From positions 31,993 through 95,992 of the forward strand of contig JAVBPT010000005.1 of the NCBI GenBank assembly GCA_031549455.1: DNA of 64,000 nt, in the 5' to 3' direction. Both the position numbers and the translations under genes were made by a program. Origin of the DNA: Eubacteriales bacterium (GTDB lineage Bacteria > Bacillota > Clostridia > Lachnospirales > JAKSVV01). Shown piece by piece: positions 8,912 to 57,909 of this stretch (position 1 is its first letter; every line of letters starts with the position of its first letter). Under the pieces are notes generated by a model. The model was not told where the DNA came from. It saw only the letters and a program-made list of their open reading frames with translations, and made no database searches.

Positions 8912-9322
8912 ATGAAAGAGATGTTGAAAGATTTTAAGAAATTTGCGATCAAGGGAAACATCATTGACTTATCTGTGGGAGTGATCATCGGGACAGCCTT
9001 TGGAAAAATTACCGCATCACTTGTAAATGATATCATCATGCCGATACTAAGTCTTGTGATTGGGCGGATCAATCTGACCACCCTAAGCTTTATATTGGTG
9101 CACGAGATAGAAGGAAGGGATGCGGTGACGCTAAAGTACGGAAATTTTATACAAATGATTTTAGAGTTTCTGATTATATCTTTCTCAATCTTCTTACTTT
9201 TAAAGTATTTGAATAAGGTAAGAAGCAAGATTGAGGTGGTGGAGGAGAAAAAAGCGGAGTTGCCACCAGCGGATGTGAGACTATTGACAGAGATCCGAGA
9301 TATTTTAAAAGAAAAAAAATAG
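8912..9322 (+). CDS. mscL: Large-conductance mechanosensitive channel
   Basis: It has the N-terminal FKKFAIKGNIIDLSVGVIIGTAFGKI signature. Confidence 0.9.
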   Translation: MKEMLKDFKKFAIKGNIIDLSVGVIIGTAFGKITASLVNDIIMPILSLVIGRINLTTLSFILVHEIEGRDAVTLKYGNFIQMILEFLIISFSIFLLLKYLNKVRSKIEVVEEKKAELPPADVRLLTEIRDILKEKK

Positions 9323-9359
9323 AAATAAGCCGGCAAAAGTAGATTTTGCCGGCTTATTT
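9323..9359 (+). terminator. Intrinsic terminator after mscL
   Basis: AAATAAGCCGGCAAAA-loop-TTTTGCCGGCTTATTT perfect hairpin. Confidence 0.85.
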
Positions 9360-9463
9360 CTTTCTATTTGATCATTCTTTGTCAATACCAAATGAGGTTT
9401 TACATAAAGGACTAGCATTTTTTTCCAAACTCTGATATAATGATGGCAGATTGGAGTCTTTGC

Positions 9464-11155
9464 ATGGAAAAGCTACTAAAAGGGATGATTTATTATATGG
9501 TATGCTATCTTGGCTTTAGCATTCTTTTTAGTCTGCTCTATTTATCAAAAGAGACCATTCATATCGTGCCGATTTACCCAGAGAGTCTTGCTTTTTGGGT
9601 TTATATTTCCTTATCCACTCTGGCTTTATGTATCATTCTGTTGAATAGGAAAACCAGACTGGGAGAGGCAGTCAGAGAGGATTTTATCAAAATTAAGCCT
9701 TTTGTCAATTCACTGGACATCAACCACCTAAAGCTAATGGATTATCATGTGATTCATTATAGAAAAGGACTTGAAGTGGGGCTTATTAAAATCAAAGAGA
9801 AGGTGAAGAAAATTTATATCGATCTAAAAGCCAGAAACATAAGCAGTGTTTTTGTGTTTGAAGACGAAAAAAACCAGTTTTTCGATCGGATGAAGAGAAG
9901 TCTGACTCTCCCGAACTCAAGTAGTTTCATTATCTCAAAGGGGAGAAAATTTTCTGAATCAGAAGAGGAGGAGTGGAAGAAAGAGGGATTCGATCTTTAC
10001 CATATCAATCTCAAAGAGGGCTTTCCGGAGTATAGCATCGACATTTTGAGTTATATAAATACCTATGAAGAAGTGGAAGTCTTTGCGAGAAAAATCTTAC
10101 TCTTTTCGGAGAATTCAGAGATCAGCTTTAGAGAGGATACCATCAAACTACTTATGGCGTGTGTGTTTCTCGTAAAAAGCAATCCACAGGAGGAAAAAAG
10201 AACCATTGAGCAAGTAAAGAGACTGATTGAGAATGCGAGTGCCGCCGAAATAAGACAAAAAATCAAGATCTCAAATACAGGGTTTGAAATCTTAGAGACA
10301 ATGGAAAATAGGGATGACGAGAGGATTTTAGAGTTTCTCCATTTTGCGAAAAGATCACTTGAAAGAGTAAATTGTGGCCTCTTTCAAAAAGGAGAAAAAG
10401 AACTCAACCTGGATGTTTTTAAATCCAACCCTTCTATCTGTCTGATACAGGCCGGGGAAGAAAACAGTTTAGAAGTAGAATTGCTACTAGATCTAATTTA
10501 TAATTATTCAAAACAGGTGTATGACATCGTGAACCGAGATCATAGCATTTACATCAACGTGATGATAGAAGACTTAAGTCTTTATCAGACCATGAATGCA
10601 CTGGAGGAGCATCTGATCGCGGCATCCGTATACAAAATCTTCTATTTAATTGGAGTTCAAAATACAATAGCGTATGAACCTAAATATAAAAAGGAGATAT
10701 TGGAAAATGTAGGAGCAAAACTATTCTTCTCTATCTCAAACAAGCGAACCGAGATGATTCTAAAAGGAGAACTTCAGGCAGATGATAAGAAGCTTGAGAA
10801 ATTATATACCAAACTCGATACCAGCAAAGTACTTGTATTGCTTAACAAAGAAGAATATTTTGTGGTTACAAAATATGACTTTAATGTTGAAAAAATTAAA
10901 AATTATAATATTATAAAAGAAGAGAACGAATTTATTAATAATTTGGCCAACCTGGATCAAAAAATAGATGTAAAGTATGTGGAAGAACCAGTTGAAAAAA
11001 AGGAACTAAAGCTAGAAGTAACAAAGGAAGAAAAGGAATTTATCTCGAGCCTTTTAAAAGAGAAAGCGGAAGAGACGGCTGTGGTAGTGGAAAAAAAACC
11101 AGAGGGACACATGCTTTTCAATCAATTGGTTGATATAAAAAGAGGGAACGGCTAA
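9464..11155 (+). CDS. Membrane-anchored VirD4/TraG (T4CP)-like protein lacking a P-loop (pseudo-ATPase paralog of 55835..57445)
   Basis: It has two N-terminal TM segments and is collinear by eye with the T4CP at 55835..57445 (see finding). The Walker A position reads FVFEDEKNQFF. A GGAG RBS and an extended -10 (TGATATAAT at ~9431) favour the ATG at 9464. Confidence 0.5.
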   Translation: MEKLLKGMIYYMVCYLGFSILFSLLYLSKETIHIVPIYPESLAFWVYISLSTLALCIILLNRKTRLGEAVREDFIKIKPFVNSLDINHLKLMDYHVIHYRKGLEVGLIKIKEKVKKIYIDLKARNISSVFVFEDEKNQFFDRMKRSLTLPNSSSFIISKGRKFSESEEEEWKKEGFDLYHINLKEGFPEYSIDILSYINTYEEVEVFARKILLFSENSEISFREDTIKLLMACVFLVKSNPQEEKRTIEQVKRLIENASAAEIRQKIKISNTGFEILETMENRDDERILEFLHFAKRSLERVNCGLFQKGEKELNLDVFKSNPSICLIQAGEENSLEVELLLDLIYNYSKQVYDIVNRDHSIYINVMIEDLSLYQTMNALEEHLIAASVYKIFYLIGVQNTIAYEPKYKKEILENVGAKLFFSISNKRTEMILKGELQADDKKLEKLYTKLDTSKVLVLLNKEEYFVVTKYDFNVEKIKNYNIIKEENEFINNLANLDQKIDVKYVEEPVEKKELKLEVTKEEKEFISSLLKEKAEETAVVVEKKPEGHMLFNQLVDIKRGNG

Positions 11156-11168
11156 GAAAGTTGGGTTA

Positions 11169-12521
11169 ATGATAGAGAAAAAAATTTTGGTGATTGGGGC
11201 AGCCAGAAGTGGGATTGCACTTAGTAACACGCTTATAAAAATGGATAAAGAAGTAACCTTATATGATCATACAGAGAATTTAAATGAAGAAGAGATTAGA
11301 GCACAACTAGAAGAGGGTGTTCGGTTTTTACATGGGCAGACGGTAGAGGTCTCCTCGCTCCTTGATGAAACACAAGTGATTGCCTTAAGTCCAGGCGTTC
11401 CAACCGATTTGGATTTTTTGGAGGTTGCAAGGACGAAAAGGATCAAGATCTTGGGAGAGATTGAGATCAACTATGATCTTTGCAAACCAAAAGAGAAGAT
11501 CATCGGTATCACTGGAACAAATGGAAAAACCACCACCACCACACTTGTGTATGAGATTGTAAAAGCGTTTGATGTGAACACACTTGCGCTTGGTAATATT
11601 GGGACGCCCTTTTCAAAAGAGGTGCTTGGGGTAGAAAGTGAAAACATTGTTCTTGAGCTTAGTAGCTTTCAGCTTGAGACCATTGACCAATTTAGGCCTC
11701 ATGTGAGTGCGGTTTTAAATATTACACCAGATCATTTGGATCGTCATAAAACAATGGAAAAGTATATCCAGGCCAAGGAAAATATCTTTAAAAATCAGAC
11801 CGCGGAGGATACACTAGTTTTAAACTTTGACGATGAGGTCACAAGAGGGATGAGGGATAAAACAGAGGCAAAGGTGCTTTTCTTCTCCTCGAAGCAGAGC
11901 TTAGAACGGGGGGCGTTTTTAAGGGGAGAAGAGATCGTATTAAAAGACGGAGAAATGGAAGAGGCGATTTGTCACATGCAAGATTTGCAGATTATCGGTA
12001 TGCACAATGTTGAAAATGCGATGGCGGCAGTTTTAATTACGCATGCTTACGGTGTGCCTATTGAGATCATTAGAGAGGTGCTCATTCGTTTTCAGCCTGT
12101 TGAGCATAGGATAGAATATGTCCGCACGCTAGATGGGGTAAAATATTATAATGATTCAAAAGGCACCAATCCGGATTCATCCATCAAAGCGATTCGAGCG
12201 ATGAAGGGGGAAACGATCATCATCATCGGGGGCTATGATAAGAAAATTAGCTTTGATGAATTTGTATCAGCGTTTTCTGGGAAAGTAAAACTTGCCATTA
12301 TTATCGGTCAGGTACGAGATCAACTGGTTGAGACTTGTAACCGTCTGGGTTTTACGAATTATGTCTGTAAGGACACCTTTCCCGAGGCAGTTTTATGTGC
12401 CCACGCCCACGCAAAAGAAGGGGATCATGTTTTGCTATCGCCTGCCTGTGCGTCATGGGGAATGTTTAACAACTACGAAGAGAGGGGAAAGCAGTTTAAG
12501 GAGCTTGTGAATAAGCTGTAG
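11169..12521 (+). CDS. murD: UDP-N-acetylmuramoylalanine--D-glutamate ligase
   Basis: It contains GITGTNGKTTTT and the Mur ligase layout, with an N-terminal GAARSG Rossmann-like motif. Confidence 0.9.
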   Translation: MIEKKILVIGAARSGIALSNTLIKMDKEVTLYDHTENLNEEEIRAQLEEGVRFLHGQTVEVSSLLDETQVIALSPGVPTDLDFLEVARTKRIKILGEIEINYDLCKPKEKIIGITGTNGKTTTTTLVYEIVKAFDVNTLALGNIGTPFSKEVLGVESENIVLELSSFQLETIDQFRPHVSAVLNITPDHLDRHKTMEKYIQAKENIFKNQTAEDTLVLNFDDEVTRGMRDKTEAKVLFFSSKQSLERGAFLRGEEIVLKDGEMEEAICHMQDLQIIGMHNVENAMAAVLITHAYGVPIEIIREVLIRFQPVEHRIEYVRTLDGVKYYNDSKGTNPDSSIKAIRAMKGETIIIIGGYDKKISFDEFVSAFSGKVKLAIIIGQVRDQLVETCNRLGFTNYVCKDTFPEAVLCAHAHAKEGDHVLLSPACASWGMFNNYEERGKQFKELVNKL

Positions 12522-13867: not shown

Positions 13868-13920
13868 AATAAAAATATTCAGGTATGATAAAGTAAATTT
13901 AAAAAATGGAGGAAAAAAAG

Positions 13921-15096
13921 ATGATGTTTATGAAAAGCAAAAAGTTATGGATTACTGTTATAATCTTGCTTGTGATCGGTACAGTGGGTGTGTTCGGAAT
14001 GGACTATCTTGCAAAAAGTAGTTTTGCAAACAAGACCCCATTTGAAAAATTGATTTACTCTTCTGTTAAAAACATGAAGTATAGATCATACGATTCCACA
14101 CAAAATGTCAACATGGATTATGCAATCGGGGATTATAAAATAAAGGCGGACATGAACTTTGATGTTAAAAAATCAGGGGACAAAAATTACTTTGGAATAA
14201 TGGCAAAATTAAATGATAAGGAAGTAAATTTGGGATCGATCTACTTTGATGCCCAAAAAATCATTTTGGATCTAACCGGGTTTTACGATAAGCCGTTATA
14301 TGTTTACTATGATGAGATCGGAAAACTTTTAAAGACAGCAGGGATGACAGGAGAGGAATCCAATCTGCATACCAAAGACTATATGGATATTTTCATGAAC
14401 TTTAAAAACAATGCAAACCTAAAAAAGGTTAAAGCAGACACGTATATCGATATGGTGAAAAAGTATTTTGAAGATGCGATTATGTATATTGGAGATGAAA
14501 GCATCACAATTCAAGACGTAAAATACGATACAGAGAAATATAAATTAGATCTTCAGAATGAAAATGTGATCCTTGCAATTGTGGACACTTTAGAAGCGGC
14601 AAAACAAGATCAAAATTTAAAACTGGCTTCTAAAGATTTGGCAACGAACCTACTTAATAAAGCATTGCAAAATGAAGACTACAAAGAGTTTGGTCTTGCA
14701 AAAGAGGAGATGGAAGGTCTGATTCAAACCATTTCAAATGAGTTTGATAGTTATTGGAATCAATTATTAGATGCAATGATCAACACGTATAAAACAGCAG
14801 CGGAAGCAGATTTGAGTGGAATGGACATGGAACTTTTCTATCATCTAACCAAAACAGGAGATATGGTGAAGAGCTATGGATCACAAAAAGTAGACAAAGA
14901 GGGAATAAAAACCCAAATGACATTTGATTCAGAAATCTTTCATATCAATAAAAGTGTAAGCATTCCAAAGTATGATCTAAAGAATGCGATGAATCTTGCA
15001 GTAGAATCTATGGAATCATTACAAGACGTTTTTGGAAAGATCGCACAAGCCTATGGGGCAAAATTTACAGAAATTTTCTTGGGAGATTTACAATAA
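13921..15096 (+). CDS. Membrane-anchored/secreted hypothetical protein
   Basis: It has an N-terminal TM or signal segment (LWITVIILLVIGTVGVFG). No family was recognised. A GGAGG RBS favours the ATG at 13921. Confidence 0.5.
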   Translation: MMFMKSKKLWITVIILLVIGTVGVFGMDYLAKSSFANKTPFEKLIYSSVKNMKYRSYDSTQNVNMDYAIGDYKIKADMNFDVKKSGDKNYFGIMAKLNDKEVNLGSIYFDAQKIILDLTGFYDKPLYVYYDEIGKLLKTAGMTGEESNLHTKDYMDIFMNFKNNANLKKVKADTYIDMVKKYFEDAIMYIGDESITIQDVKYDTEKYKLDLQNENVILAIVDTLEAAKQDQNLKLASKDLATNLLNKALQNEDYKEFGLAKEEMEGLIQTISNEFDSYWNQLLDAMINTYKTAAEADLSGMDMELFYHLTKTGDMVKSYGSQKVDKEGIKTQMTFDSEIFHINKSVSIPKYDLKNAMNLAVESMESLQDVFGKIAQAYGAKFTEIFLGDLQ

Positions 15097-15109: not shown

Positions 15110-15143
15110 AAAAACAGAGTTCAATGTTTAAACTCTGTTTTTT
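15110..15143. terminator. Bidirectional terminator between convergent genes
   Basis: AAAAACAGAGTT-loop-AAACTCTGTTTTTTT hairpin. Confidence 0.8.
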
Positions 15144-19578: not shown

Positions 19579-20544
19579 ATGAGTAATGGAATTACGATTA
19601 GACATAACAAATATACTCCTTGGAGTCCAAAAGAATATTATAATAAATATGGATTTAAAATTAAAAAACCAGTTCAAGAAGGGTTTAAAATTAATGTTCA
19701 AAAATATAATCCTGAAGAAGAAGGAAGTAAGAATAAAACAGTAATCCAAGCCATTGAGGATGGATATAAAAATACTGATAAAATTTGCGATGATAATCTG
19801 TTAATTGCTAAAATTCCTGCAATAAAAAAAGCGGTGGAAAGTATAGATAGAGAAATTGTTGCAACTGGAATTGATACTAAAAGTATTGATGGAAAAATGC
19901 AGGTAATGGCATTTTTATATGGTCAATTACAAAAGGATATAAAGTACTATAATCCACAAGTTAGGGTGGGAAACTGGATGCCGAATTACCTTCAAGAAAG
20001 AGCTACAGGGTTAGAAGATGGTTGTAATGTTTATGGTGCTTTAGTAGATAAATATGCTAAATGTTCAGGTATTGCAAAAGCATTTGAAGTCTTATGCAAT
20101 CATTATGGAATAGCATGTACATCTAGAGGACTTACTGGAGTTAGAGTTGGTCATGCAATAAATGAGGTGAGTTTTGATAATGGAAAAGTATCTTATATAG
20201 ATATTGCATCTGAAATAGGAATGGGACAAGATGGACTTTATGCTGATAAAAATACTATAAGAAGAATTCCTATTGAAAAGCTAAATATAACCACTAGATA
20301 TTTCATGATGAGCAAAGAAGATGTAAATAGGATGGGATATACTTTTGATGAAGAGCCTCGTTCGGAAAGTCAGAAGATGAGTGAAAATGAAAAATTAGAT
20401 TTATTTAGTGAAGTAGATAGAAAGATAGCAAATGGAGTCAATGGAACTGCATTAAGTGATGAAGTACCAACAGTAGCAAGTGGTAATAATGAAATGCCTA
20501 GAATAACTATACATAATCATAATGCCAGTGATATAGAATACTAA
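19579..20544 (+). CDS. Transglutaminase-like (Cys-His-Asp) domain protein, no signal peptide
   Basis: The core AKCSGIAKAFEVLCNHYGIAC...GHAINEVSF...SYIDIA resembles the transglutaminase-like cysteine peptidase core (C...H...D). The gene is very AT-rich. Confidence 0.55.
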   Translation: MSNGITIRHNKYTPWSPKEYYNKYGFKIKKPVQEGFKINVQKYNPEEEGSKNKTVIQAIEDGYKNTDKICDDNLLIAKIPAIKKAVESIDREIVATGIDTKSIDGKMQVMAFLYGQLQKDIKYYNPQVRVGNWMPNYLQERATGLEDGCNVYGALVDKYAKCSGIAKAFEVLCNHYGIACTSRGLTGVRVGHAINEVSFDNGKVSYIDIASEIGMGQDGLYADKNTIRRIPIEKLNITTRYFMMSKEDVNRMGYTFDEEPRSESQKMSENEKLDLFSEVDRKIANGVNGTALSDEVPTVASGNNEMPRITIHNHNASDIEY

Positions 20545-25293: not shown

Positions 25294-26715
25294 ATGGAAG
25301 TGAAGCTATTGTCCTGTACAAACCATGCAAGTAAAATTGTGGCCACCGCAGCCAAAATAGCGGTGACACCGGGAAAAGCAATTGAAATTTTTGATTCAAT
25401 AAAAGAGGATAAAAAAGCAGATGAGGTGGTAGAGCGGGTTCTGGGATATGGACATATGTCGATCTCGGAACATGTCTCTTTTAACTTTGGCATTCAAGAT
25501 GTGTCCCTCGTTGTAGAGACTTTTTTAATCAGCCACCGACTTGCTTCTTACACCATTCGCTCGGGAAGATATACCAGCTTTGATGACGACAATCTTTTTG
25601 TACCGGAGTTTCGATTTAATAGTTATGTGGATGATGATACGAAGGTAAAAGCCAAGGAGCTCTATAAAGATTTTGCAAAGCACGCATTTTCTGAGTACAA
25701 CTATTTTTTAGAAAAAGGAATTAAACCTGAGGATGCACGATTCTGTTTACCTTATGGCGTGAAAACCAATATCTATTTTACCGTGAATGCAAGAGAACTT
25801 ATTCATGTAATCAGTGCTGCTTTACACGGAAGGGGAAAGCGTAACGCGGAAATTGTGAAGCTGGGAGAAAGATTGCTTAAGCTTGGAAAAGAGGTACTAC
25901 CAACTGTCTTTAAGGACGTTGAACGGTATGAGCTTGGACAAGAAGAAAAGGTAGACAGATTAAACGAGATCTTTACAAGACATGAGATGCAGGACGTTGA
26001 AAGGCAAACACGAGCAATCGTCGAGTTGATTGATTACGAAGAAGATGCGGAAAGAAAGGTGGGCGTTCTTGCGCTAATTAATCAGTTTAACTGTGACACA
26101 GCATATGCTCAAATGAGAGCTAATGATACCGATATATTGAAAGAAATATTAGAGATTGTGTGCAACGATAAAAGGAAAAGAGAACTTGAACAAATTAGTT
26201 ATACCTTTAGAATGAACAATCTTACTTTACCGATTTTAAAACATATTATGAGACACCGAATGCAATCGATTCTAATTCCATCTTTTGTGCAAGTGGGGAA
26301 GAGCAAAACCTATTCCACGCCACCGTCTATGGAAGAGAATGACCAGAGTGAAGAAATTATAGAAAGATATAAAAAAGTACACGAAATGGGGAGAGAACTC
26401 TATGAAAAACTGGAAGCAATGGATGTCCGAAAAGAGGATCTAGCCTATACATATTTAATGGGAGATGAAGTGTGTGATGTGGTCACAACCATGAATGCAA
26501 GAGAACTTTATCATTTTCTATCGCTTAGAACCTGTACCAGGGCACAATGGGCAATTCGAGACATCGCGCTTTCGATGCTCAAAAAACTAAAGGAAGTGGC
26601 ACCTTATATCTTCTCACTTGCAGGACCAAATTGCTATTCAAAAGGAAAATGTACTGAGGGAAAAATGTCATGTAAACAGATGGACGAGGTTGCAAAACAA
26701 ATTAAGGAATTATAG
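25294..26715 (+). CDS. thyX: Tandem-duplicated ThyX-like flavin-dependent thymidylate synthase
   Basis: Half 1 reads GHMSISEHVSFNF...SHRLASYTIRSGRY...FTVNAREL. Half 2 reads ISYTFRM...RHRMQS...TTMNARELYHFLSLR..RAQWAIRDIA. Confidence 0.65.
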   Translation: MEVKLLSCTNHASKIVATAAKIAVTPGKAIEIFDSIKEDKKADEVVERVLGYGHMSISEHVSFNFGIQDVSLVVETFLISHRLASYTIRSGRYTSFDDDNLFVPEFRFNSYVDDDTKVKAKELYKDFAKHAFSEYNYFLEKGIKPEDARFCLPYGVKTNIYFTVNARELIHVISAALHGRGKRNAEIVKLGERLLKLGKEVLPTVFKDVERYELGQEEKVDRLNEIFTRHEMQDVERQTRAIVELIDYEEDAERKVGVLALINQFNCDTAYAQMRANDTDILKEILEIVCNDKRKRELEQISYTFRMNNLTLPILKHIMRHRMQSILIPSFVQVGKSKTYSTPPSMEENDQSEEIIERYKKVHEMGRELYEKLEAMDVRKEDLAYTYLMGDEVCDVVTTMNARELYHFLSLRTCTRAQWAIRDIALSMLKKLKEVAPYIFSLAGPNCYSKGKCTEGKMSCKQMDEVAKQIKEL

Positions 26716-27068
26716 TATAGTAGTATAAAAAACCTGATATAATTGCTTATCTATAGGTTTTACCTGTCCATCCAAATAAATAGGGAAGGCTTATCAAGCG
26801 ATGAAAAAAGATTTCCAAAGATAGAATATATAAAAATTATGGGGAGTTTGAGGGAAAAGAGAAAATGTAGCATAAATGATAATTAAAAAAAACATAGCTT
26901 TTAAATGTAAACTAATCTTGCTAAAGGCTTTTCGTATATCATATTTCCCAACTCATAGATAGCATCATCCGAGAATGGTTGTAATATTTAAAACTTATAA
27001 AATACTTCGATCTTTCATTATATACACTTAGATATTATAAACGTTTTTATTTTCAATATTTATTGCAC

Positions 27069-27092
27069 AAAAAAGAGGGCTCCCTCTTTTTT
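27069..27092. terminator. Bidirectional hairpin terminator in ORF-poor region
   Basis: AAAAAGAGGG-CTC-CCCTCTTTTTT hairpin. Confidence 0.6.
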
Positions 27093-27249
27093 GCTTTAGG
27101 AGACTCCCTCTTTAAAATTACTTACTATTTAGGTTCTAGATTATAGTCAATAAAAATAGAGACATTATCGATGCTATCTAAGACTTTTTGTACCCAGATC
27201 ACCGTTTTCTTGTTGCTGCGTTGAGTTCATATCTGATGGTAAACTCCTG

Positions 27250-27423
27250 CTATTGGAATTGAACAAAGTGAAGGATTATCCATACTACAATGCATATTGC
27301 AGAAATGATGAGACAATGACGAAAATCTCTGTCGTAGGGACCCCAGATATTCCAATAGTATAATGCTTTGACAAGAAAGATAAGTCCCGCAACGATCGCT
27401 GCCAAGTAAATAGTAAATAACAT
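27250..27423 (-). CDS. Unannotated 57-aa two-TM small membrane protein (MLFTIYLAAIVAGLIFLVKALYYWNIWGPYDRDFRHCLIISAICIVVWIILHFVQFQ)
   Basis: A GAGGAGGG RBS lies 7 nt before the ATG at 27423, and there are two hydrophobic helices. It is below the ORF-track cutoff. Confidence 0.55.
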   Translation of the reverse strand: MLFTIYLAAIVAGLIFLVKALYYWNIWGPYDRDFRHCLIISAICIVVWIILHFVQFQ

Positions 27424-27953
27424 AATAATTCCCTCCTCTTATTTTTCAAGGTGTTTTATTTATAGTAAACTATCAAAAGATAGATAAAAAAGGGAAGAAA
27501 TTCAAAAAATGTATTAAAAACTATACATTACCATATATTTTACCATTTTTCAACTTTTTACACGATAAATAGCCTGACTTTTTTCTTGACACAATAAAAC
27601 CAAGCATACATCATTTTTTGTCATTCAAATCGAATTATCATTGTTTTACATTATGGTCGATTATACTAGAAATCAAGCCATTTTAAATTAGATGTTATTT
27701 ATCCCAATTTTCTAAGTTTCAATGCGCGAAAGGAGAATTGTACTGTTTAATAATACGAATAGAATGTAAAAGATAAGAAAATGGGCGTGAGCATAAGAGT
27801 AATAGGATTCGTATTCAATGGAATAAAAAATTTCTAATGAGGTAAAGCAAGAATATTGCGAACAAAGCAAACATGTTGCAAATTTATCTTTAAAATTGCA
27901 TCTGGTTTGACGGATTATCGCGTTAAAATATCCTAGACATTGCTAGGATATGA

Positions 27954-28148
27954 TTATCTATAGTATTCCGTGTGCTTCTCATTAATCGCATCAAAATCAT
28001 TAAATACATTTGTTTGATCTTCACCTATCTCAAACATAAATGAGTTCGGTTCAACCTCTTCACTAAAACCAATATTTTCCTTTGAAAATCGATACGCCTT
28101 ATTGTTTGGCGGTGTACTGTAACTACTATTTCCTGTAAAAGTTTTCAT
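27954..28148 (-). CDS. 64-aa hydrophilic small protein, unknown function
   Basis: A GGAGGTG RBS lies 6 nt before the ATG, and a hairpin (TATCCTAG-loop-CTAGGATA) follows the stop. Confidence 0.55.
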   Translation of the reverse strand: MKTFTGNSSYSTPPNNKAYRFSKENIGFSEEVEPNSFMFEIGEDQTNVFNDFDAINEKHTEYYR

Positions 28149-28321
28149 AACAACACCTCCAAATATTCTGCACGTTTGTGCAATTTTAGTATATGCAAAA
28201 TGTGTTCAAGTATTCACGATCCACATAGCAATTATTGGCAATAAAATTTTACAAAAAAGTACATACAAAAACAAAAAAATATGTTAAAATTATATTAGAT
28301 ATAGATATCGAAAGGAATAGT

Positions 28322-31300
28322 ATGAAAAAGATAATCTCGAGTTTATTATTGATTATATATAGTTTAACCATTCTGCTGACCTTTTATGTAAAAGATGTGG
28401 CGGCGGCAGGGGAACCATTTAGATGGGTGAGAGGATATGCACTGGATAACAACCTTTCAAGAACAACGCAGGTTGCAAACGACGAGGCTTTGCTAGAGTG
28501 GGATGTAACCGATGCGGGAGTGTATACGTTTTCTTTTTATACAGAAAATGAGAGAAAGAATGTGTTGACCTTTACCAAAACCCTAAATACACTGGATGTA
28601 AAATATCAAATTTTCAGATGGGATGGGACTGATTTTACCATCGATGTAACACAAAGTTACATTCAAGCAGAATATAAAGATTGGGATTTTGCGTCCCAAA
28701 CACTAATTACGCCAACCGTTGTGCCAACAGAGGTGGTCTTCCATATTGATTCTGTGGACTCACAAAGGGGACGAATTTTTAAAATCGAAAATCAATACAT
28801 CAAGTTCTTTTGGAGTGTCTCAGATTCAACAATAAATGTAAATTTTAAGGGACTTAAGAAAAACACAGTCCATCCTTTTGAGCTTAGCAGTCCAGGCGGA
28901 AGCACCCAAAAGATAAATGTATTAAAAAATCTGAGTTTTGATGTATCACCCACACACTACATCAACGTGTCTGGAAGTGTGGTCAACCTTGAGACGATTG
29001 ACCATGAGCTTCACCCGAATGAAAATGCGGGGCAAAAGCCGGGGATCAAGATCGAAATTTCAAGACCCATCGCCTATAATTCAGTGACAGCAAAATTTGA
29101 TGGTTATATCCCACTGATGGATGAGGCACTTATCAATCTATCCATCAACCTTCAGGAAAAGGTGGAAAATCTGGGCGTAAATCCTGCAAACTTTTCTATC
29201 TACAAAAAGCTTTCCGAGCTTACGAAGGCTTCTAGTGGGGATAAATATTACATTGATGTTGTGAAATCAAATGATGGTTTGGTGCCGTCAAACCAATATA
29301 CGGTTTGGTCAGCTTTAAAAGAGTCAACAATCTATGACCCAACCTCTCTGATTCTTTCCAACGTGGCCACAGAGAAGTATGACTTTGACGTGAGGTACAT
29401 TGTGACCAACGGAATAGGAGCAGGGTATACTTATCTTTCCTATGATATTGCCAGAAAAAGCATCACGGATACCTATGCAGTGATTGACACCTATAATGGG
29501 CCTGGAATTTACACCATCTATGTGGCGGAAGCAGCGATCACAAACCCTTCCTCTCCTCAGCTTGCCAAATGGGCTGAACAGAGGGTAGAAGAAGGGAGCG
29601 GAAAAATTTATATTCCACTCAGCGTGGTTCGAAATGAATTGATGCCCAATAAATATTACACATTTAAGGTAGAATATCGGTTAAATGATACCACGGCCAC
29701 AGTTGCATCTCAACTTCGAATCTACGATGCAAACGCTGACCATAAGGTAACGGTTTCTGTGCCCAAAATAGTCAGCATACAAGATTTAATTGTTATCCCG
29801 AAGGAGAACACGCTCAATGATGCTAAGGTTGCACGCTTTAACCTGGTTTTCGAGATGCCGGATAAAGTGATGGAGCTTCTTAGCACAAACAACAAACAAA
29901 TTTGGTATGAATTTTGTATGAATACATTGAATCGGAACCATACGGATAGTCAGGATCCAAGCAAAAATCAGAAATATCAGATTGCTCAATCCATTTATTT
30001 GAAGAAAAATGGAAGCCAGATTGAACTTAGAATGAATGATCCAAACAATCCAGAGTTTAAAATTGTAGATATTGATAAACCAATCAGCTGTGAAATCGTT
30101 CTAAAAGGGTTAAATCAAAACTGGATTTCCTTTAAGGTACCAGATTGGTCTGGAAGCGGAGGGGATTTAACCAAACCGGTTTCCGGAAGCGTTGGGAAAT
30201 ATATACCGGGGAATAGTACGCTTTATGAAAACGACTTTTTTAATCCCAACAAGGCAAAGATTCCGGCAAGTTATTTTGTTACTTTAAGAGCGCTTTATGA
30301 TGAGGATCTAATGAGTACGACCAATGAGATCACCATGAGCGAGTATGCCATTCCAATCAGTATTGCTCTTTCGGAAACGCAAGAGATACTGAAGGCACCA
30401 ATCGATGTAAAGAGCCCGAATAAAGGAATAGATTTTATTGAAACACGGTTTACAGATGTGGAGATCACAGAGTATAAAAGAAAGATGCTTGATTCAATTC
30501 AGGCGGATCTAGACAAGAAGGAATATGAAGTCTTTTTGAGTGCTTCTCAAGGGGATCTACAAAGGGTTTTATCAAATAGCCTGATTGTAAATAAGAAAAA
30601 CATCGAGCAAGCAGCAAGCAGCATTTACAATTTCAAACACCTTGGAAGCATTGGGAATTCGATTTCAATTCACCCTTCAAGCAGTAATGTTAGCCCGACG
30701 ATAACAGAGATTCGAAATGGAGCGGTGATCGCTTTTAGAATAAGTGCAGCGGATTTCATGCTCTTAAATTTGGATGCCAATCAAAACTACTATATGGCGG
30801 TTCGAACGAGTCTTGATGTGGTGGTGGACAACAACGAAGATGGTGTGAATGAAACCACTGTGAATCGATATTCTGAAATTACAAATATTTCCTCCGTTCG
30901 AACAGGGACTGAGATTGTCATACCAGGAGAAGAAGACAAAATCCCTGGGGCACCACAAAATTTTGGAATGGAAGAGGAAGCCACTGATCGATATATTCAT
31001 ATCAGATGGGAAGAGCCAGAGTATGATTCTAGTTTAAGACCAACTGAGATTTTGGGATATGAAATCATTCGGGTTGCGGACAATCGACTTGAGACCGCAG
31101 ATCGAAGCAACAAGTTAAGCATTGCGGATCTATATGCGATTGATCAATACAAAGACAAGGAGGCTTTTAGGATAATTGAGGGAGTGATGCAAAAATGGAA
31201 TCAGACCTCAAAAATTTGGGAAGTGATAGCAGGGGACCTGGATATTTATGAATATGTGCCGAATGGAAACTATATGAGATTAAAAGACTTTAACATCAAT

Positions 31301-33163
31301 ACCAACCGAATTTATTATTACTATATTCGAACGGTAAGATATGACACGGTACTAGGACATACAGAGATTGCAAAATCGATGTGGGCGGAGTTGACCTCCA
31401 CCACAAAACCCGTACAAGGTGTTAAAAATTTAAAACAAGTCTTTACAGGATATGCTTACAACGATTTATACGAAGTGGTTGTTTCATTTGAATCACCAAT
31501 CATCGATTCAAGTAGAATACCAAGCGAGTTTGAACATGTGATTGCGGTAAGGAGTCAAGATAGCGCGGTCTATTCAGAAAACGGATATAAAGTGACACTA
31601 CTTGCTGTTAAGGATGAAGGAAAATCAGACTACAGAACCTATGTGTATAAGATTGGTGGATTATTATCTGGGAAGAAATATTATGTGAAAGCGGCAATAC
31701 TGGATAAGACCACAACAGAAGAGGGCAATGTTTATGCCAAATCGGCGTATACACCATATATTGAGCTCAGGACCACCTTTTCACAAGAGGATTATGATAA
31801 AGAAAACAAGTACGCCGATTATTCAAGATATTATGATACCAAGACATTGGAACTCATTAACGTACCCGCTTTTGTGGTTGAGGATAGCGCCTCTAGCTAT
31901 GAGCTAAAGTATATCGAGGAGAAGTTTACAGGACTCATCAATGCAACTAAAACCAGCTATTTTGATCTGCCGGTTAAGAAGGATGTGGCGAGTCTCACCT
32001 ATTTTATTTCTCAGAAAAATATACAAGACCTTCAGAATAAAAAAATGTCATTAAGGATTGTGCGGGATAACCTAACCCTCATCATTCCATACGAGTGGCT
32101 GGATTCTGAGTTAACAGAAGCATGGGTAAATATGAAAAAGTCTATGAAAGATCGAAATAAAGGGGTGAGTGATTTTTATGTTAGACTAAGCCTTACTTTC
32201 AATGATAAAGCCACCACCATTAATGGTGCCAAGAAATTGGGGGCGGAAGTTGAAACGCAAATCGAACTGATCGAACAAAATCGTTATAACGTCGAAATTG
32301 ATTATATGATTGAGGAACGATTAAAGGATAAGATTAAATCCGAAAAATCAACCTTCCTTTATGAACTGGACAGACAGTTAAAAGGAGAGATCAACGACAA
32401 TCGATTCTTAGAAATAATGGATGATACAATGGAAGATTTGGCGGAAAAGTTACAAATCATTGTCGCCAAAGAATTGCCAAAGTATGAAGAGGATTCGGAG
32501 AGCGTGGTGGAGACGTATAAACCGATTAACATGAAATATACCGGAGAAGCCACTGCTAATATTGTGGCCTACAACACGAAAACAAGAAGCTGGTATACCA
32601 TTCAACAAGAAAAATCCATGGGAAATATCAATGGGTATATGAGCAAATTGGAACGCTTTGCACTCACAAGTGTAAACGATTTTACCCTTATTTATGGAAC
32701 AGAGGAGGAGAAGGCTGCTGCTGAGGTAAAGGCAAAATATAACCTGGATGCGGTACTTCGAGCCAATGGGGTTTATGACCTGAGTGGGACGGTGACACAA
32801 AAATTGATGAAGGAGATCGTGTATGTGATTATTGCAAAAAGGGCAAGTAGTATCAATGAGGAAATCAATCTGAGAAAGCAGATTGATGCACGGTTTAGCT
32901 TCCTGAATCAAACGTTAACAAATCAGGAGATCATCTATACCATTATGCAAACTTACAATATGTTCACTAGCATTGACATCAATAACCTCATCATCAAGGA
33001 TCAGAGTGTGATTGTGGGAATAACGGGTATTCAAAACTACTATAAACAAAGCATTTTGGCTTCGGTCGAGTTGGGAATGCTTACAAAGAATGACATCAAG
33101 GAGCCCAATAAACAACTTAGTGTGGGTACAACGTTAAGACTCATAAGAGATATCATAAAATAG
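28322..33163 (+). CDS. Giant (~1613 aa) secreted beta-rich protein with fibronectin-III-like modules; no canonical anchor recognised
   Basis: It has a signal peptide (MKKIISSLLLIIYSLTILLTFYVKDVAAA). FN3-like segments occur (PGAPQNF...RWEEPEYDS...ILGYEIIRV...YYYYIRTV and VQGVKNLK...YYVKAAILD). The track's TTG start at 28235 is unlikely. Confidence 0.7.
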   Translation: MKKIISSLLLIIYSLTILLTFYVKDVAAAGEPFRWVRGYALDNNLSRTTQVANDEALLEWDVTDAGVYTFSFYTENERKNVLTFTKTLNTLDVKYQIFRWDGTDFTIDVTQSYIQAEYKDWDFASQTLITPTVVPTEVVFHIDSVDSQRGRIFKIENQYIKFFWSVSDSTINVNFKGLKKNTVHPFELSSPGGSTQKINVLKNLSFDVSPTHYINVSGSVVNLETIDHELHPNENAGQKPGIKIEISRPIAYNSVTAKFDGYIPLMDEALINLSINLQEKVENLGVNPANFSIYKKLSELTKASSGDKYYIDVVKSNDGLVPSNQYTVWSALKESTIYDPTSLILSNVATEKYDFDVRYIVTNGIGAGYTYLSYDIARKSITDTYAVIDTYNGPGIYTIYVAEAAITNPSSPQLAKWAEQRVEEGSGKIYIPLSVVRNELMPNKYYTFKVEYRLNDTTATVASQLRIYDANADHKVTVSVPKIVSIQDLIVIPKENTLNDAKVARFNLVFEMPDKVMELLSTNNKQIWYEFCMNTLNRNHTDSQDPSKNQKYQIAQSIYLKKNGSQIELRMNDPNNPEFKIVDIDKPISCEIVLKGLNQNWISFKVPDWSGSGGDLTKPVSGSVGKYIPGNSTLYENDFFNPNKAKIPASYFVTLRALYDEDLMSTTNEITMSEYAIPISIALSETQEILKAPIDVKSPNKGIDFIETRFTDVEITEYKRKMLDSIQADLDKKEYEVFLSASQGDLQRVLSNSLIVNKKNIEQAASSIYNFKHLGSIGNSISIHPSSSNVSPTITEIRNGAVIAFRISAADFMLLNLDANQNYYMAVRTSLDVVVDNNEDGVNETTVNRYSEITNISSVRTGTEIVIPGEEDKIPGAPQNFGMEEEATDRYIHIRWEEPEYDSSLRPTEILGYEIIRVADNRLETADRSNKLSIADLYAIDQYKDKEAFRIIEGVMQKWNQTSKIWEVIAGDLDIYEYVPNGNYMRLKDFNINTNRIYYYYIRTVRYDTVLGHTEIAKSMWAELTSTTKPVQGVKNLKQVFTGYAYNDLYEVVVSFESPIIDSSRIPSEFEHVIAVRSQDSAVYSENGYKVTLLAVKDEGKSDYRTYVYKIGGLLSGKKYYVKAAILDKTTTEEGNVYAKSAYTPYIELRTTFSQEDYDKENKYADYSRYYDTKTLELINVPAFVVEDSASSYELKYIEEKFTGLINATKTSYFDLPVKKDVASLTYFISQKNIQDLQNKKMSLRIVRDNLTLIIPYEWLDSELTEAWVNMKKSMKDRNKGVSDFYVRLSLTFNDKATTINGAKKLGAEVETQIELIEQNRYNVEIDYMIEERLKDKIKSEKSTFLYELDRQLKGEINDNRFLEIMDDTMEDLAEKLQIIVAKELPKYEEDSESVVETYKPINMKYTGEATANIVAYNTKTRSWYTIQQEKSMGNINGYMSKLERFALTSVNDFTLIYGTEEEKAAAEVKAKYNLDAVLRANGVYDLSGTVTQKLMKEIVYVIIAKRASSINEEINLRKQIDARFSFLNQTLTNQEIIYTIMQTYNMFTSIDINNLIIKDQSVIVGITGIQNYYKQSILASVELGMLTKNDIKEPNKQLSVGTTLRLIRDIIK

Positions 33164-51411: not shown

Positions 51412-51469
51412 TTGGAATTATAATCTAGCCTTTTGCATATTTTGTAATAAAGAAATGCAAGAGGTTTTT

Positions 51470-52621
51470 ATGTATAATAGAGTTTTGGTTGTCTTTAAAA
51501 ACAAAGAGAGCAAAAATACGAATCTGGCAGGATATGCCAAGGTCATGGAGCTAAACGATCAGGTGATGTTGGAGATTTTTCTACAAGAGGGCGGCAATAT
51601 GGAGAACGTGTATGATTTAAACATAATCTACCAAGAAAACCGGCAAAAAATCAAAAGGCAGATCTGTAAAATTGCTGTAAAAAATAAAGGAGAATGGACA
51701 AAAGACATTACGGATTTAAAAATCCATTTTAAGGATATAAAAGCGCTTTTGATCTCTTCCAATAAAGGAAACATGCTCGTGGGGTATATAGGTGAGGAGT
51801 TTGATCATAAAAAGGATGTACTGGAATATAGGGAGGAGCGGCCGGTTGAGCAAAAAGGAGGACGGATGATGCAGCAAGCACCGGCATCCATAAAGGGAGG
51901 CAAAAAAGAGGATAAAGGTGAGTACGAAGATCTCAATACCATGGATCCATCCAATCATGTCACAATTATCACCAATGGAAAAGAGAAGGAATCACCTTAT
52001 CAGAAGGATAGAGTGGACAGCACAGAGTATAAAGAAATGATTTATGAAAATGGTGTCTATGAGAAAGAGATCGTGAATATAGAACCGGCAAGTAAGATTA
52101 TAGAGGATAACGATCATAAGGATGGATACTATATGATGTATAAAGGAATTTGTCCTCCCGATAGATTGACAGCAGTATCCAGCGTAAATGTAGTGGCTTC
52201 TTCGGGCAACCAAAAAAGAAGACGCATGAGAAGACGGATCGTCAACCCATACACATTTCCTAGGGCGGGAGAGGTGTATGATAGTTATAAAGATAAATTT
52301 TACTCAGATCTAGGGATCCCTTATCAATTATTACCTAGAGAAGATGATGAAAAAAAAGAAATCATTTCTTTAAGTGGTTATCAAAAAGTAGAAAAGGATT
52401 CACCACTATATGATAAATACTTTCCGAAAGAGGAAGAACATCCAAAATCCAAAAGACAAAGGCGACATGAGCGCGGAAAAAAGGAGAGAAAGGATGAGAT
52501 CTTACCGGATGAGCCTACATATGAAAAGGACTTAGAAAATGAGATTGCACATTTTAAAATACAAGAAGAAGAACCCAAAAAGCGTGAGCGTCATGAGAAA
52601 AAAAGACGTTCCAAACATTAG
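51470..52621 (+). CDS. Hypothetical Lys/Glu/Arg-rich protein
   Basis: It is a long ORF whose C-terminal two-thirds are low-complexity and charged (KRRRMRRR, KSKRQRRHERGKKERK, KKRERHEKKRRSKH). No family was recognised. Confidence 0.45.
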   Translation: MYNRVLVVFKNKESKNTNLAGYAKVMELNDQVMLEIFLQEGGNMENVYDLNIIYQENRQKIKRQICKIAVKNKGEWTKDITDLKIHFKDIKALLISSNKGNMLVGYIGEEFDHKKDVLEYREERPVEQKGGRMMQQAPASIKGGKKEDKGEYEDLNTMDPSNHVTIITNGKEKESPYQKDRVDSTEYKEMIYENGVYEKEIVNIEPASKIIEDNDHKDGYYMMYKGICPPDRLTAVSSVNVVASSGNQKRRRMRRRIVNPYTFPRAGEVYDSYKDKFYSDLGIPYQLLPREDDEKKEIISLSGYQKVEKDSPLYDKYFPKEEEHPKSKRQRRHERGKKERKDEILPDEPTYEKDLENEIAHFKIQEEEPKKRERHEKKRRSKH

Positions 52622-55450: not shown

Positions 55451-55786
55451 TTATTTTTTACAACAATTAGATGAATCTAAGCCTGCACCTACTTTTGCAA
55501 ATCCAAGAGATAAAACAAGTGGACCAAGTAGTGGATAGATAAAGTAAGCTGCTGCGGAAGCAAAACTATCACTTTTGAAATCACTTTCATTAAAGCTTTC
55601 TAGATATTCTTCTCCGTATTGCGCCATTTGTGCCATCTGGTCTTCTAGTTCTCTTTCAACGCGTCCATTGATGTAAACAAAATTGCAGATCATAACAACG
55701 ATGATAATAAGAGAGCAAAGTAGTAGTGAGATCACAAATGGGCAAACAGAACATTTGTTCCTCGTTTCTTTCTTTTCTTCTTCCAT
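55451..55786 (-). CDS. 111-aa membrane protein (N-terminal TM, C-terminal hydrophobic segment, terminal NCCKK)
   Basis: A GAGGAGG RBS precedes the start. The TM segment is CPFVISLLLCSLIIIVVMICNFVYI, and the gene is co-oriented with the T4CP and 48 nt downstream of it. Confidence 0.55.
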   Translation of the reverse strand: MEEEKKETRNKCSVCPFVISLLLCSLIIIVVMICNFVYINGRVERELEDQMAQMAQYGEEYLESFNESDFKSDSFASAAAYFIYPLLGPLVLSLGFAKVGAGLDSSNCCKK

Positions 55787-55834
55787 TTTTCCTCCTCAAA
55801 ATTAAATTCAATTTTATAATTACTATAATAATTG

Positions 55835-57445: not shown

Positions 57446-57455
57446 TATACACCCC

Positions 57456-57830: not shown

Positions 57831-57909
57831 AGAGTCCTCCATCTTATTTTAGATAGTTCTATTTTACACAATTTTAATTAAAATTCAAGCAGTTTACAAT
57901 ATTTATAAC

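What the first reader, a model, noticed from the sequence alone, without database searches (positions are those of the whole stretch)
9464..11155. P-loop-less paralog of a type IV coupling protein embedded between mscL and murD
By-eye alignment shows this 563-aa two-TM protein is collinear with the canonical T4CP at 55835..57445. Matching segments, this protein first and the T4CP second:
- SSFIISKGRKF / TSVVVSDPKSE
- GFDLYHINL / GYNVMKLDP
- TIKLLMACVFLV / SEPLLVASFIFV
- NPSICLIQAGEENS / RPTALFVCVPERKS
- IYINVMIEDLSLY / PVLFMLDEFANIG
- ILENVGAKLFFSISNKRTE / ILNNLKAKVFYSGLTGTSAE

At the Walker A position it reads VFVFEDEKNQFF instead of AIVGPTGCGKSTSFF, so it should not bind ATP in the usual way. 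It lies among core cell-wall and tRNA genes, not in a mobile element. A degenerate T4CP partnered in trans with an active one would be an unusual, apparently domesticated use of conjugation machinery.
Basis: inference. Interest (0 to 1): 0.55.

Follow-up and report, generated by a model that had tools for sequence, protein, structure and literature searches.

The report
ATPase-dead relative of a conjugation coupling protein
This chromosomal gene encodes a membrane protein that descends from the ATP-driven "coupling proteins" of bacterial DNA-transfer machines but has lost every ATP-binding motif; it is real and very rare, and its function is unknown.

Summary
9464..11155 (+) is a real 563-aa gene with its own promoter-like site and ribosome-binding site. 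It has two N-terminal TM helices and no Walker A or other nucleotide-binding motif.

Direct searches fail (Pfam, NCBIfam, PADLOC: no hits; BLASTP vs the window T4CP E=0.08). Homology is established through the only relative found among about 15 billion proteins:
- P0002 matches the target at pairwise E 2e-18 and passes Pfam TrwB_AAD_bind on its own.
- The two-sequence profile aligns with 33 VirD4-type T4CPs at hhalign score 78.9 (E 1.8e-9); the best of 240 shuffles scored 28.4.
- The alignment reproduces all six by-eye segments.

Walker A, DPKGE, YNP, Walker B and RSR are degenerate in both family members, so the loss of ATPase function is old. The ORFs nevertheless stay intact.

The context is purely housekeeping and codon usage matches the host. 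The "partner in trans" idea is untested. Relatives that share the solo active T4CP at 55835..57445 have no detectable copy of this gene. The gene is also no closer to that resident T4CP than to T4CPs from mobile-element-like contexts.

Best reading: a selected, non-catalytic scaffold or adaptor derived from a Firmicute T4CP. It is a new variant of a known kind, of moderate interest.

The parts
9321..9361 (+). Bidirectional intrinsic terminator ending mscL; it is the upstream boundary of the transcription unit
   Evidence: 18-bp stem with 7 GC pairs followed by a T-run
9433..9441 (+). Extended -10 promoter-like element TGATATAAT (inferred)
   Evidence: Read directly from the sequence. The consensus scan, which requires a -35 element, did not list it.
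9453..9456 (+). Ribosome-binding site GGAG, 7 nt before ATG 9464
   Evidence: Sequence
9464..11155 (+). CDS of the 563-aa ATPase-dead T4CP-like membrane protein
9482..9649 (+). N-terminal membrane anchor: TM1 (residues 7-27) and TM2 (residues 40-62)
   Evidence: Kyte-Doolittle windows. They align with the two TM helices of the T4CP in the global hhalign. The relative in L002 has a similar N-terminus.
9848..9883 (+). Degenerate Walker A position: VFVFEDEKNQFF (residues 129-140), with a 3-residue deletion and Glu in place of the P-loop Lys
   Evidence: Global hhalign, MAFFT alignment A3 and motif regex
9899..10873 (+). Core homologous to the T4CP nucleotide-binding domain plus all-alpha domain (residues 146-470)
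   Evidence: hhalign residues 145-465 vs T4CP 138-515, score 78.9. The MSA-guided model has block-mean pLDDT of 63-88 here.
10550..10588 (+). Degenerate Walker B position: IYINVMIEDLSLY (residues 363-375) opposite PVLFMLDEFANIG
   Evidence: P0002 has KIYLINMNMVETM at this position.
10874..11152 (+). Family-specific charged C-terminal tail (residues 471-563). It contains the conserved helix motif LKLEVTKEEKEFISSLLKEKAE (residues 515-536).
   Evidence: Conserved with P0002, which has LKPELTSEEKEYIAKLLREKQE. Predicted helix at 521-539.
11169..12521 (+). murD, 13 nt downstream with no intervening terminator; probably co-transcribed
   Evidence: Pfam Mur ligase domains. The next terminator-like site at the end of a + strand gene lies at 15110-15142; the other sites found are inside coding sequence or on the - strand.
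55835..57445 (-). Resident active-looking solo T4CP (536 aa, intact Walker A and B). It is the comparison partner and only a hypothetical functional partner.
   Evidence: Pfam and NCBIfam hits. Orthologues are also stand-alone in housekeeping contexts.
57456..57842 (-). 128-aa single-TM protein directly upstream of the solo T4CP; a conserved companion
   Evidence: 60% identical proteins occupy the same position in L083 and L084

Best explanation
**Shown.** The gene encodes a membrane-anchored protein with two TM helices. It descends from a Firmicute VirD4/TraG-type (CD1115-like) type IV coupling protein. It keeps the whole T4CP layout: TM domain, RecA-like core interrupted by an all-alpha domain, and the C-terminal strands. 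It has lost every motif needed to bind and hydrolyse ATP: the P-loop is shortened and acidic, and Walker B, DPKGE, YNP and the RSR arginines are gone. The same losses occur in its only known relative, which comes from a different organism with about 30% GC. The inactivation is therefore old, yet both ORFs stay intact. The window gene also has host-like codon usage, a plausible promoter and ribosome-binding site of its own, and probably heads an operon with murD and cca.

**Inferred.** The protein is maintained by selection as a non-catalytic pseudo-ATPase. Most likely it works as a membrane scaffold or adaptor. It would use the retained all-alpha domain and the family-specific charged C-terminal helix to bind a protein or nucleic-acid partner at the membrane. 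It cannot power translocation itself. Possible sub-options are mixing into or regulating oligomers of the resident active solo T4CP (55835..57445), or an unrelated envelope-linked role.
For: **Homology**
- P0002 is the only hit in 1.84 billion representatives (E 2.7e-4); pairwise E is 2e-18 over residues 98-536.
- P0002 passes the Pfam TrwB_AAD_bind threshold (27.2 bits against a cutoff of 20.5).
- Its only plasmid tblastn hits are VirD4-like proteins of the CD1115 family.
- hhalign of target+P0002 against 33 T4CPs gives 94.8-96.3% probability, E 5e-8 to 1.8e-9. The score of 78.9 compares with a shuffle maximum of 28.4.
- The global alignment is collinear from the TM helices to the C-terminal strand.

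**Loss of motifs:**

**Selection and residency**
- A 563-codon ORF is intact in DNA of about 36% GC.
- GC3 is 0.394 (window mean 0.390) and the codon-usage score is 0.081 (mean 0.074).
- The N-terminal and C-terminal non-catalytic motifs are shared with P0002.

**Transcription unit:**

**Precedent:** ATPase-dead paralogues of T4SS ATPases exist, such as Rickettsiales RvhB4-II (PMC4676284).
Against: - The target alone is not significantly similar to T4CP profiles: Pfam has no hit, hhalign gives E 0.015 and HMMER gives 1.1 bits. The case rests on one bridging sequence.
- The family has only two or three known sequences, so there is no covariation, no dN/dS estimate and no second genomic context. 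P0002 lies on a 2.2-kb contig.
- No homologue was found in genomes that share the solo T4CP. A conserved partnership is therefore not supported.
- The structure model that resembles Cag-beta and TrwB was guided by a T4CP-containing alignment, so it is circular. The single-sequence model failed with pLDDT 35.
- There are no expression or interaction data.
Confidence: 0.55

Rival explanations
1. The gene is a functionless relic. A T4CP gene left behind by a decayed integrative element is drifting, and its intact ORF and position are incidental.
For: All catalytic motifs are gone. The gene is extremely rare and absent from relatives. Its GC (0.355) is about 1 SD below the window mean. It has diverged fast, with about 16% identity to T4CPs.
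Against: An ORF of 563 codons without a stop is very unlikely under neutrality at about 36% GC (roughly 0.93^563). The only relative, at 22-25% identity, is also intact and shares non-catalytic features: the TM N-terminus, FE(D/N) at the former P-loop, IFY-x-GV-x-NT and the EEKE-x-I-xx-LL-x-EK tail. Codon usage is fully host-like. It has its own promoter-like site and ribosome-binding site and a tight junction to murD. No other element remnants are nearby.
Confidence: 0.15
2. The protein is a dedicated negative or positive regulator, or hetero-oligomer subunit, of the resident solo T4CP (55835..57445) and its 128-aa partner. Together they form a domesticated, T4SS-independent system.
For: Both proteins are encoded on the same chromosome segment outside mobile elements. 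T4CPs oligomerise through the domain that is retained here (established knowledge; TrwB hexamer 1e9r appears). Dead and active ATPase paralogue pairs are known in T4SS (RvhB4-I/II). The solo T4CP with its small TM protein is a conserved chromosomal module.
Against: The two genes are about 45 kb apart and not co-regulated in any visible way. Orthologue-bearing genomes have no detectable copy of the dead protein. The dead protein is not closer to the resident clade than to the more distant T4CP subset. No interaction test was possible.
Confidence: 0.15
3. The protein has been re-purposed for an envelope or cell-wall-linked role, because it heads an operon with murD.
For: Only 13 nt separate it from murD, with no terminator-like site at the end of a + strand gene until 15110-15142. 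In relatives murD follows mraY in the dcw cluster, so this arrangement is a lineage-specific rearrangement.
Against: The operon also contains cca and an unknown protein, so it is functionally mixed. No second genome shows the linkage. Adjacency after a rearrangement is weak evidence.
Confidence: 0.1
4. The similarity to T4CPs is due to chance or composition, and the protein is an unrelated orphan membrane protein.
For: Direct searches are non-significant.
Against: The calibrated profile-profile score is about 20 SD above shuffles. P0002 independently reaches the Pfam T4CP model and CD1115 VirD4 proteins. The same register is recovered by BLASTP, hhalign local and global modes, and MAFFT.
Confidence: 0.03

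Closest known systems
VirD4/TraG/TrwB type IV coupling proteins, specifically the Firmicute 'VirD4-like, CD1115 family' (NCBIfam NF045973; Pfam PF02534, PF10412, PF12696)
   Same: Both have two N-terminal TM helices and a RecA-like core split by an all-alpha domain. They are collinear over about 450 residues and similar in length. The bridging relative P0002 hits PF10412 and CD1115-family proteins.
   Different: The target has no Walker A, Walker B, DPKGE, YNP or RSR motifs. It has an extra charged C-terminal tail with its own conserved helix. It has no Pfam or NCBIfam hit of its own and no T4SS or relaxase neighbourhood.
RvhB4-II of the Rickettsiales vir-homolog T4SS, an ATPase-dead VirB4 paralogue (PMC4676284)
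   Same: It is a full-length paralogue of a T4SS ATPase with defective active sites. It evolves faster than the active copy and is encoded at a separate locus from it.
   Different: It belongs to a different ATPase family (VirB4, not T4CP). RvhB4-II is strictly conserved across a whole order and sits in a genome with a complete T4SS. The present protein is nearly an orphan, and no T4SS is visible in the window.
Degenerate ATPase domains of FtsK/SpoIIIE-type secretion ATPases (EssC/EccC of type VII secretion)
   Same: They belong to the same ASCE/FtsK-HerA superfamily. Their non-catalytic P-loop-fold modules serve as regulatory or substrate-binding scaffolds (own knowledge; an EssC paper was listed but not read).
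   Different: Those are domains within one multi-domain polypeptide that retains at least one active domain. The present protein is a separate single-domain protein with no active site at all.
Cag-beta (H. pylori T4CP) regulated by CagZ (PDB 8dol)
   Same: It is the top structural match of the MSA-guided model. It shows that T4CP activity can be governed by a non-catalytic protein partner.
   Different: Cag-beta is an active ATPase, and CagZ is unrelated in sequence to T4CPs. The structural match here is circular.

Membership tests
Type IV coupling protein (VirD4/TraG/TrwB) | Conserved nucleotide-binding domain with Walker A G-x4-GK-[ST]. The review PMC7434980 calls the NBD the feature that defines the family. 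| tested here: not met
   No such motif exists anywhere in the protein. The aligned position reads FEDEK-N, with a 3-residue deletion and Glu in place of Lys.
Type IV coupling protein (VirD4/TraG/TrwB) | Walker B hhhhDE | tested here: not met
   The aligned segment is NVMIEDLS opposite LFMLDEFAN. The acidic pair is out of register, and P0002 has INMNMVET at this position.
Type IV coupling protein (VirD4/TraG/TrwB) | N-terminal transmembrane domain with two helices | tested here: met
   Hydrophobic segments at 7-27 and 40-62. They align to the T4CP TM helices.
Type IV coupling protein (VirD4/TraG/TrwB) | All-alpha domain inserted between the Walker A and Walker B regions | tested here: met
   Residues of about 200-300 align with the T4CP all-alpha region. 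They are predicted helical in both the single-sequence and the MSA-guided models. P0002's Pfam hit is to TrwB_AAD_bind (PF10412), but over P0002 residues 369-479, which is C-terminal to the all-alpha region.
Type IV coupling protein (VirD4/TraG/TrwB) | The protein's own score passes the curated family models (PF02534, PF10412, PF12696; NF045973) | tested here: not met
   There are no Pfam or NCBIfam families at E <= 1. HMMER with a T4CP profile gives 1.1 bits.
Type IV coupling protein (VirD4/TraG/TrwB) | Common ancestry with the family (remote homology) | tested here: met
   hhalign score 78.9, E 1.8e-9, against a shuffle maximum of 28.4. P0002 acts as the bridge.
Type IV coupling protein (VirD4/TraG/TrwB) | Genetic association with a T4SS (VirB4) and/or a relaxase | tested here: not met
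   None was found among the ORFs scanned across the 64-kb window. The rest of the genome could not be examined.
ATPase-dead paralogue working with an active copy (RvhB4-II type) | Defective active site, plus an active homologue in the same genome | tested here: met
   The active-looking T4CP lies at 55835..57445.
ATPase-dead paralogue working with an active copy (RvhB4-II type) | Conserved co-occurrence of the dead and active copies across the lineage | tested here: not met
   Close orthologues of the solo T4CP exist in several genomes. The dead copy has no detectable homologue there.
ATPase-dead paralogue working with an active copy (RvhB4-II type) | Physical interaction or co-assembly with the active copy | not testable with these tools
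   No multimer prediction or experiment was available.

The most novel reading that the evidence does not exclude
A deep-branching Clostridia lineage has domesticated coupling proteins away from conjugation. An active solo T4CP with its conserved 128-aa membrane partner would work together with this ATPase-dead T4CP as a mixed, T4SS-independent membrane machine or regulated gate. The dead subunit would act as substrate receptor or brake. This would be the first pseudo-ATPase member of the T4CP family with a cellular, non-mobile-element role.
Probability: 0.1. Interest if true: 0.7.

Novelty: new variant of a known kind. Interest (0 to 1): 0.4.

Why it matters
T4CPs are defined by their ATPase domain, and Walker A mutants cannot conjugate (PMC7434980). 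I found no report of a naturally maintained T4CP-fold protein with no ATP site, encoded in core chromosomal DNA. If functional, it would show that the T4CP scaffold (membrane anchor, all-alpha domain and tail) can be kept for a non-motor job. That would parallel the pseudo-ATPases of other secretion systems.

Together with the conserved solo T4CP and small-protein module in the same genome, it points to chromosomal, conjugation-independent uses of coupling proteins in Clostridia. The impact is limited because only two or three family members are known and there are no functional data.

Tried and rejected
**Direct family and structure-database searches on the target**
- Pfam, NCBIfam and PADLOC gave no hits; PHROGs gave only a weak hit to the tail (E 0.0025).
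- PDB sequence searches with the target, with P0002 and with their profile found nothing relevant.

**Searches for more family members**
- The word-indexed search of 5.8 billion proteins, with the protein and with the two-sequence profile, found only the protein itself.
- Exhaustive phmmer of 1.84 billion representatives found self plus P0002.
- Scans of metagenome contigs (two) and viral contigs (one), and tblastn of the target against plasmids and phages, found no further members.

**Synteny approach**
- I anchored on MurD in 185,579 species genomes. The best MurD was only 50% identical.
- In relatives murD follows mraY, and no target-like gene is present.

**Other tests**
- A T4CP profile scored with HMMER against the target and shuffles did not discriminate.
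- Single-sequence AlphaFold failed with pLDDT 35.
- The MSA-guided model gave pLDDT 66 and top Foldseek matches to Cag-beta, HerA, TrwB and VirB4. It is circular and I did not use it as evidence of homology.
- A 595-aa protein without domains near the solo-T4CP orthologue in L083 was checked and is unrelated.
- Literature searches for P-loop-less T4CPs found none.

**Rejected readings:** chance similarity, and an alternative nucleotide-binding motif elsewhere in the protein.
Full report
**1. The observation**

The window has an ORF on the + strand ending at 11155. The sequence favours 9464:
- A strong bidirectional terminator (9321-9361) closes mscL.
- An extended -10 element, TGATATAAT, lies at 9433-9441 and contains the 9440 ATG.
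- GGAG lies at 9453-9456, 7 nt before ATG 9464.
- An independent gene call on an identical Logan contig also gives 563 aa.

Kyte-Doolittle analysis finds two hydrophobic helices, at residues 7-27 and 40-62. No Walker A, GK[ST] or GxGxxG motif exists anywhere in the protein, and glycine content is half that of the T4CP.

The comparison protein at 55835..57445 (-) is an unambiguous T4CP:
- Pfam T4SS-DNA_transf at 1.6e-62, TraG-D_C at 2.6e-29 and TrwB_AAD_bind at 9.7e-23.
- NCBIfam VirD4-like CD1115 family at 238.6 bits.
- Walker A GPTGCGKS and Walker B LFMLDE.

**2. Is the similarity real?**

Direct tests are weak:
- BLASTP gives E=0.081, although over a collinear stretch of 197 residues.
- There are no Pfam, NCBIfam or PADLOC hits and no PDB sequence hit.
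- A HMMER T4CP profile gives 1.1 bits, inside the shuffle distribution.
- hhalign of the target alone against 33 T4CPs gives E=0.015, in the same register.

The protein is almost an orphan. The word-indexed search of 5.8 billion proteins returned only itself. An exhaustive phmmer of 1.84 billion cluster representatives returned itself plus one protein, P0002 (715 aa, E 2.7e-4).

P0002 is the key bridge:
- It aligns with the target over residues 98-536 at pairwise E 2e-18.
- On its own it passes the Pfam threshold for TrwB_AAD_bind (27.2 bits against a cutoff of 20.5, E 2.3e-6).
- Its only tblastn hits among 72,556 plasmids are genes annotated as VirD4-like, CD1115 family.

The two-sequence profile (A1) against an alignment of 33 T4CPs (A2) gives hhalign probability 94.8-96.3% and E 5e-8 to 1.8e-9 over 270-311 columns. 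I calibrated this score:
- 120 column shuffles gave a maximum of 24.9 (mean 17.0, SD 2.7).
- 120 block shuffles gave a maximum of 28.4.
- The reversed sequences gave 21.6.
- The real alignment scored 78.9.

A global alignment is collinear from the two TM helices to the C-terminal strand (LDTSKVLVLL opposite LHEDKVLIIA). It pairs VFVFEDEK-NQFF with AIVGPTGCGKSTSFF, and MAFFT gives the same register. Homology with T4CPs is therefore established, by transitivity through one bridging sequence.

**3. What has been lost and what is kept**

In 33 T4CPs the following positions are invariant. Both family members have lost them:

| T4CP motif | Target | P0002 |
|---|---|---|
| G-P-T-G-x-G-K (Walker A) | FEDEK-N, with a 3-residue deletion and Glu for Lys | FENDNED |
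| D-P-K-x-E | SKGRK | DKDNE |
| Y-N-P | IDI | INL |
| L-D-E-F-A-N (Walker B) | IEDLSL | NMVETM |
| R-S-R | SVY | PKY |

Of the two invariant glutamines of the T4CP Q-motif (Q422 and Q426 in the window T4CP), only the first survives, and only in the target (GVQNT).

The following features are kept in both members:
- The TM anchor. The P0002 gene call is N-terminally short; the contig's frame adds MKRNLKIILYYLCMFLIMVTLIFLI, which resembles the target's MEKLLKGMIYYMVCYLGFSILFSLL.
- The beta-strand and helix pattern of the core.
- The all-alpha region.
- IFY-x-GV-x-NT.
- The KY and the Lys of the ILxN-x-K-x-F motif.
- A family-specific charged tail with LK-x-E-x-T-x-EEKE-[FY]-I-xx-LL-x-EK.

P0002 comes from DNA of about 30% GC, compared with 38% here. 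The ATPase death therefore predates the split of two different organisms, and both ORFs remain open.

**4. Context**

Neighbours are lgt, folD, DUF975, an M18 aminopeptidase and mscL upstream. Downstream are murD (13 nt away), the CCA-adding enzyme and an unknown 396-aa protein. msrB and msrA follow on the opposite strand.

No terminator-like site at the end of a + strand gene is found between the gene and 15110-15142. The gene therefore probably heads an operon that includes murD.

The rest of the window is housekeeping (RecD2, ArgRS, LigA, RelA, UvrC, NAD kinase, TsaD, flagellin and others). No integrase, relaxase or VirB4 was found among the ORFs scanned.

Composition matches the host:

| Measure | This gene | Window genes |
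|---|---|---|
| GC | 0.355 | mean 0.387, SD 0.031 |
| GC3 | 0.394 | mean 0.390 |
| Codon-usage score | 0.081 | mean 0.074, SD 0.027 |

The gene is a long-term resident.

In the closest genomes found by MurD (no more than 50% identity; Lachnospiraceae and Defluviitalea-like), murD follows mraY and no target-like gene is present. The arrangement here is lineage-specific.

**5. The "active partner"**

The T4CP at 55835..57445 is itself stand-alone. It lies between an RNase Z-like gene and flagellin and is flanked by two small membrane proteins.

Its close orthologues are also solo genes in housekeeping contexts:
- P0007, 76% identity.
- P0010, 63% identity.
- P0013, 57% identity.

In two of the three, the upstream 92-125-aa protein is 60% identical to the window's 128-aa protein. 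More distant homologues (P0040 and P0088) sit in element-like contexts with PcfJ, a T4SS pilin, ALP_N and a prepilin peptidase.

None of these genomes yielded a homologue of the dead protein. The dead-family profile scores higher against the more distant T4CP subset, which includes P0088 (82.7), than against the solo clade (47.7). A specific duplication of the resident gene, and a conserved partnership, are therefore both unsupported, although neither is excluded for this one lineage.

**6. Structure**

Single-sequence AlphaFold failed (pLDDT 35). With a hybrid alignment (target, P0002 and 33 T4CPs) the model reached pLDDT 66 and pTM 0.60, with block-mean pLDDT of 63-88 across residues 150-470. 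Foldseek then gave Cag-beta (8dol), HerA, TrwB (1e9r) and VirB4 as top hits. This result is expected from the alignment supplied, so I treat it as illustration only.

**7. Interpretation**

Shown: this is an ATPase-dead, membrane-anchored derivative of a Firmicute VirD4-type coupling protein. It is chromosomal, has host-like composition and is very rare.

Inferred: it is kept by selection as a non-catalytic scaffold or adaptor that uses the all-alpha domain and the conserved C-terminal helix. It cannot drive translocation. Whether it acts on the solo T4CP, on something envelope-related (given the murD operon), or on another partner is unknown.

Rival readings and my confidence in each:
- Functionless relic: about 0.15.
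- Dedicated partner of the solo T4CP: about 0.15.
- Envelope-linked role: about 0.1.
- Chance similarity: about 0.03.

**8. Comparison with known systems**

By descent and architecture the protein belongs with the T4CPs. It fails the defining feature of the family, the nucleotide-binding domain with Walker A and Walker B (PMC7434980), and it fails the curated models. I file it as a derived, non-catalytic offshoot rather than as a member.

The nearest functional analogy is RvhB4-II. That protein is an ATPase-dead VirB4 paralogue of the Rickettsiales T4SS, which evolves faster than the active copy and is encoded apart from it (PMC4676284). From my own knowledge, the degenerate ATPase domains of EssC/EccC are a further analogy. 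Literature searches found no description of a P-loop-less T4CP.

**9. Verdict**

- Novelty: a new variant of a known kind.
- Interest is moderate (0.4). The object is real and unusual, but it is known from two or three sequences, has no functional handle, and the attractive partnership hypothesis lacks comparative support.

Noticed in passing
window 55451..57842 (-); L083 9510-11876; L084 9584-11623: The "canonical" T4CP is a stand-alone chromosomal gene. Immediately upstream lies a conserved single-TM protein of about 125 aa, 60% identical across three genomes. All three copies sit in housekeeping contexts with no VirB4 or relaxase nearby. More distant homologues sit in mobile-element-like contexts. 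This looks like a domesticated two-gene module of T4CP plus small protein.
   Followed up: partly
window 11169..12521 (+) compared with L004, L005, L009, L012, L015 and others: Here murD is detached from the dcw cluster and lies between the dead T4CP and cca. In the closest genomes found, murD directly follows mraY. The best MurD match in 185,579 species genomes is only about 50% identical, so the organism is a deep-branching, poorly sampled Clostridia lineage.
   Followed up: partly
window 26716..33163: A 1642-aa ORF (28235..33163, +) has no Pfam hit at E <= 1e-5. It is preceded by about 1.5 kb with no ORF of 120 aa or more, where GC drops to about 0.30-0.35.
   Followed up: no
window 19579..20544 (+): A 321-aa ORF has very atypical composition (GC 0.31, GC3 0.155, against a window GC3 mean of 0.39) and no Pfam hit at E <= 1e-5. 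It may be foreign DNA or not a real gene.
   Followed up: no
L002 1..2226 (GCA_024500515.1 contig JALNLU014575290.1): The gene call for the only relative (P0002) is too short at the N-terminus. Reading the same frame from nt 1 or nt 28 adds a first TM helix that resembles the target's N-terminus. The contig has 29.7% GC and is only 2.2 kb, so no genomic context is available. A 732-aa cluster mate (P0123) exists on a 2.6-kb Logan contig.
   Followed up: partly
window 25294..26715 (+): A 473-aa protein has two matches to the Thy1 (ThyX) model, suggesting a tandem-duplicated or fused flavin-dependent thymidylate synthase.
   Followed up: no
window 13906..15096 (+) and 51455..52621 (+): Two proteins of about 390 aa have no Pfam hit at E <= 0.001. 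The first has a hydrophobic N-terminal segment. It is the last gene of the putative operon of dead T4CP, murD and cca.
   Followed up: no
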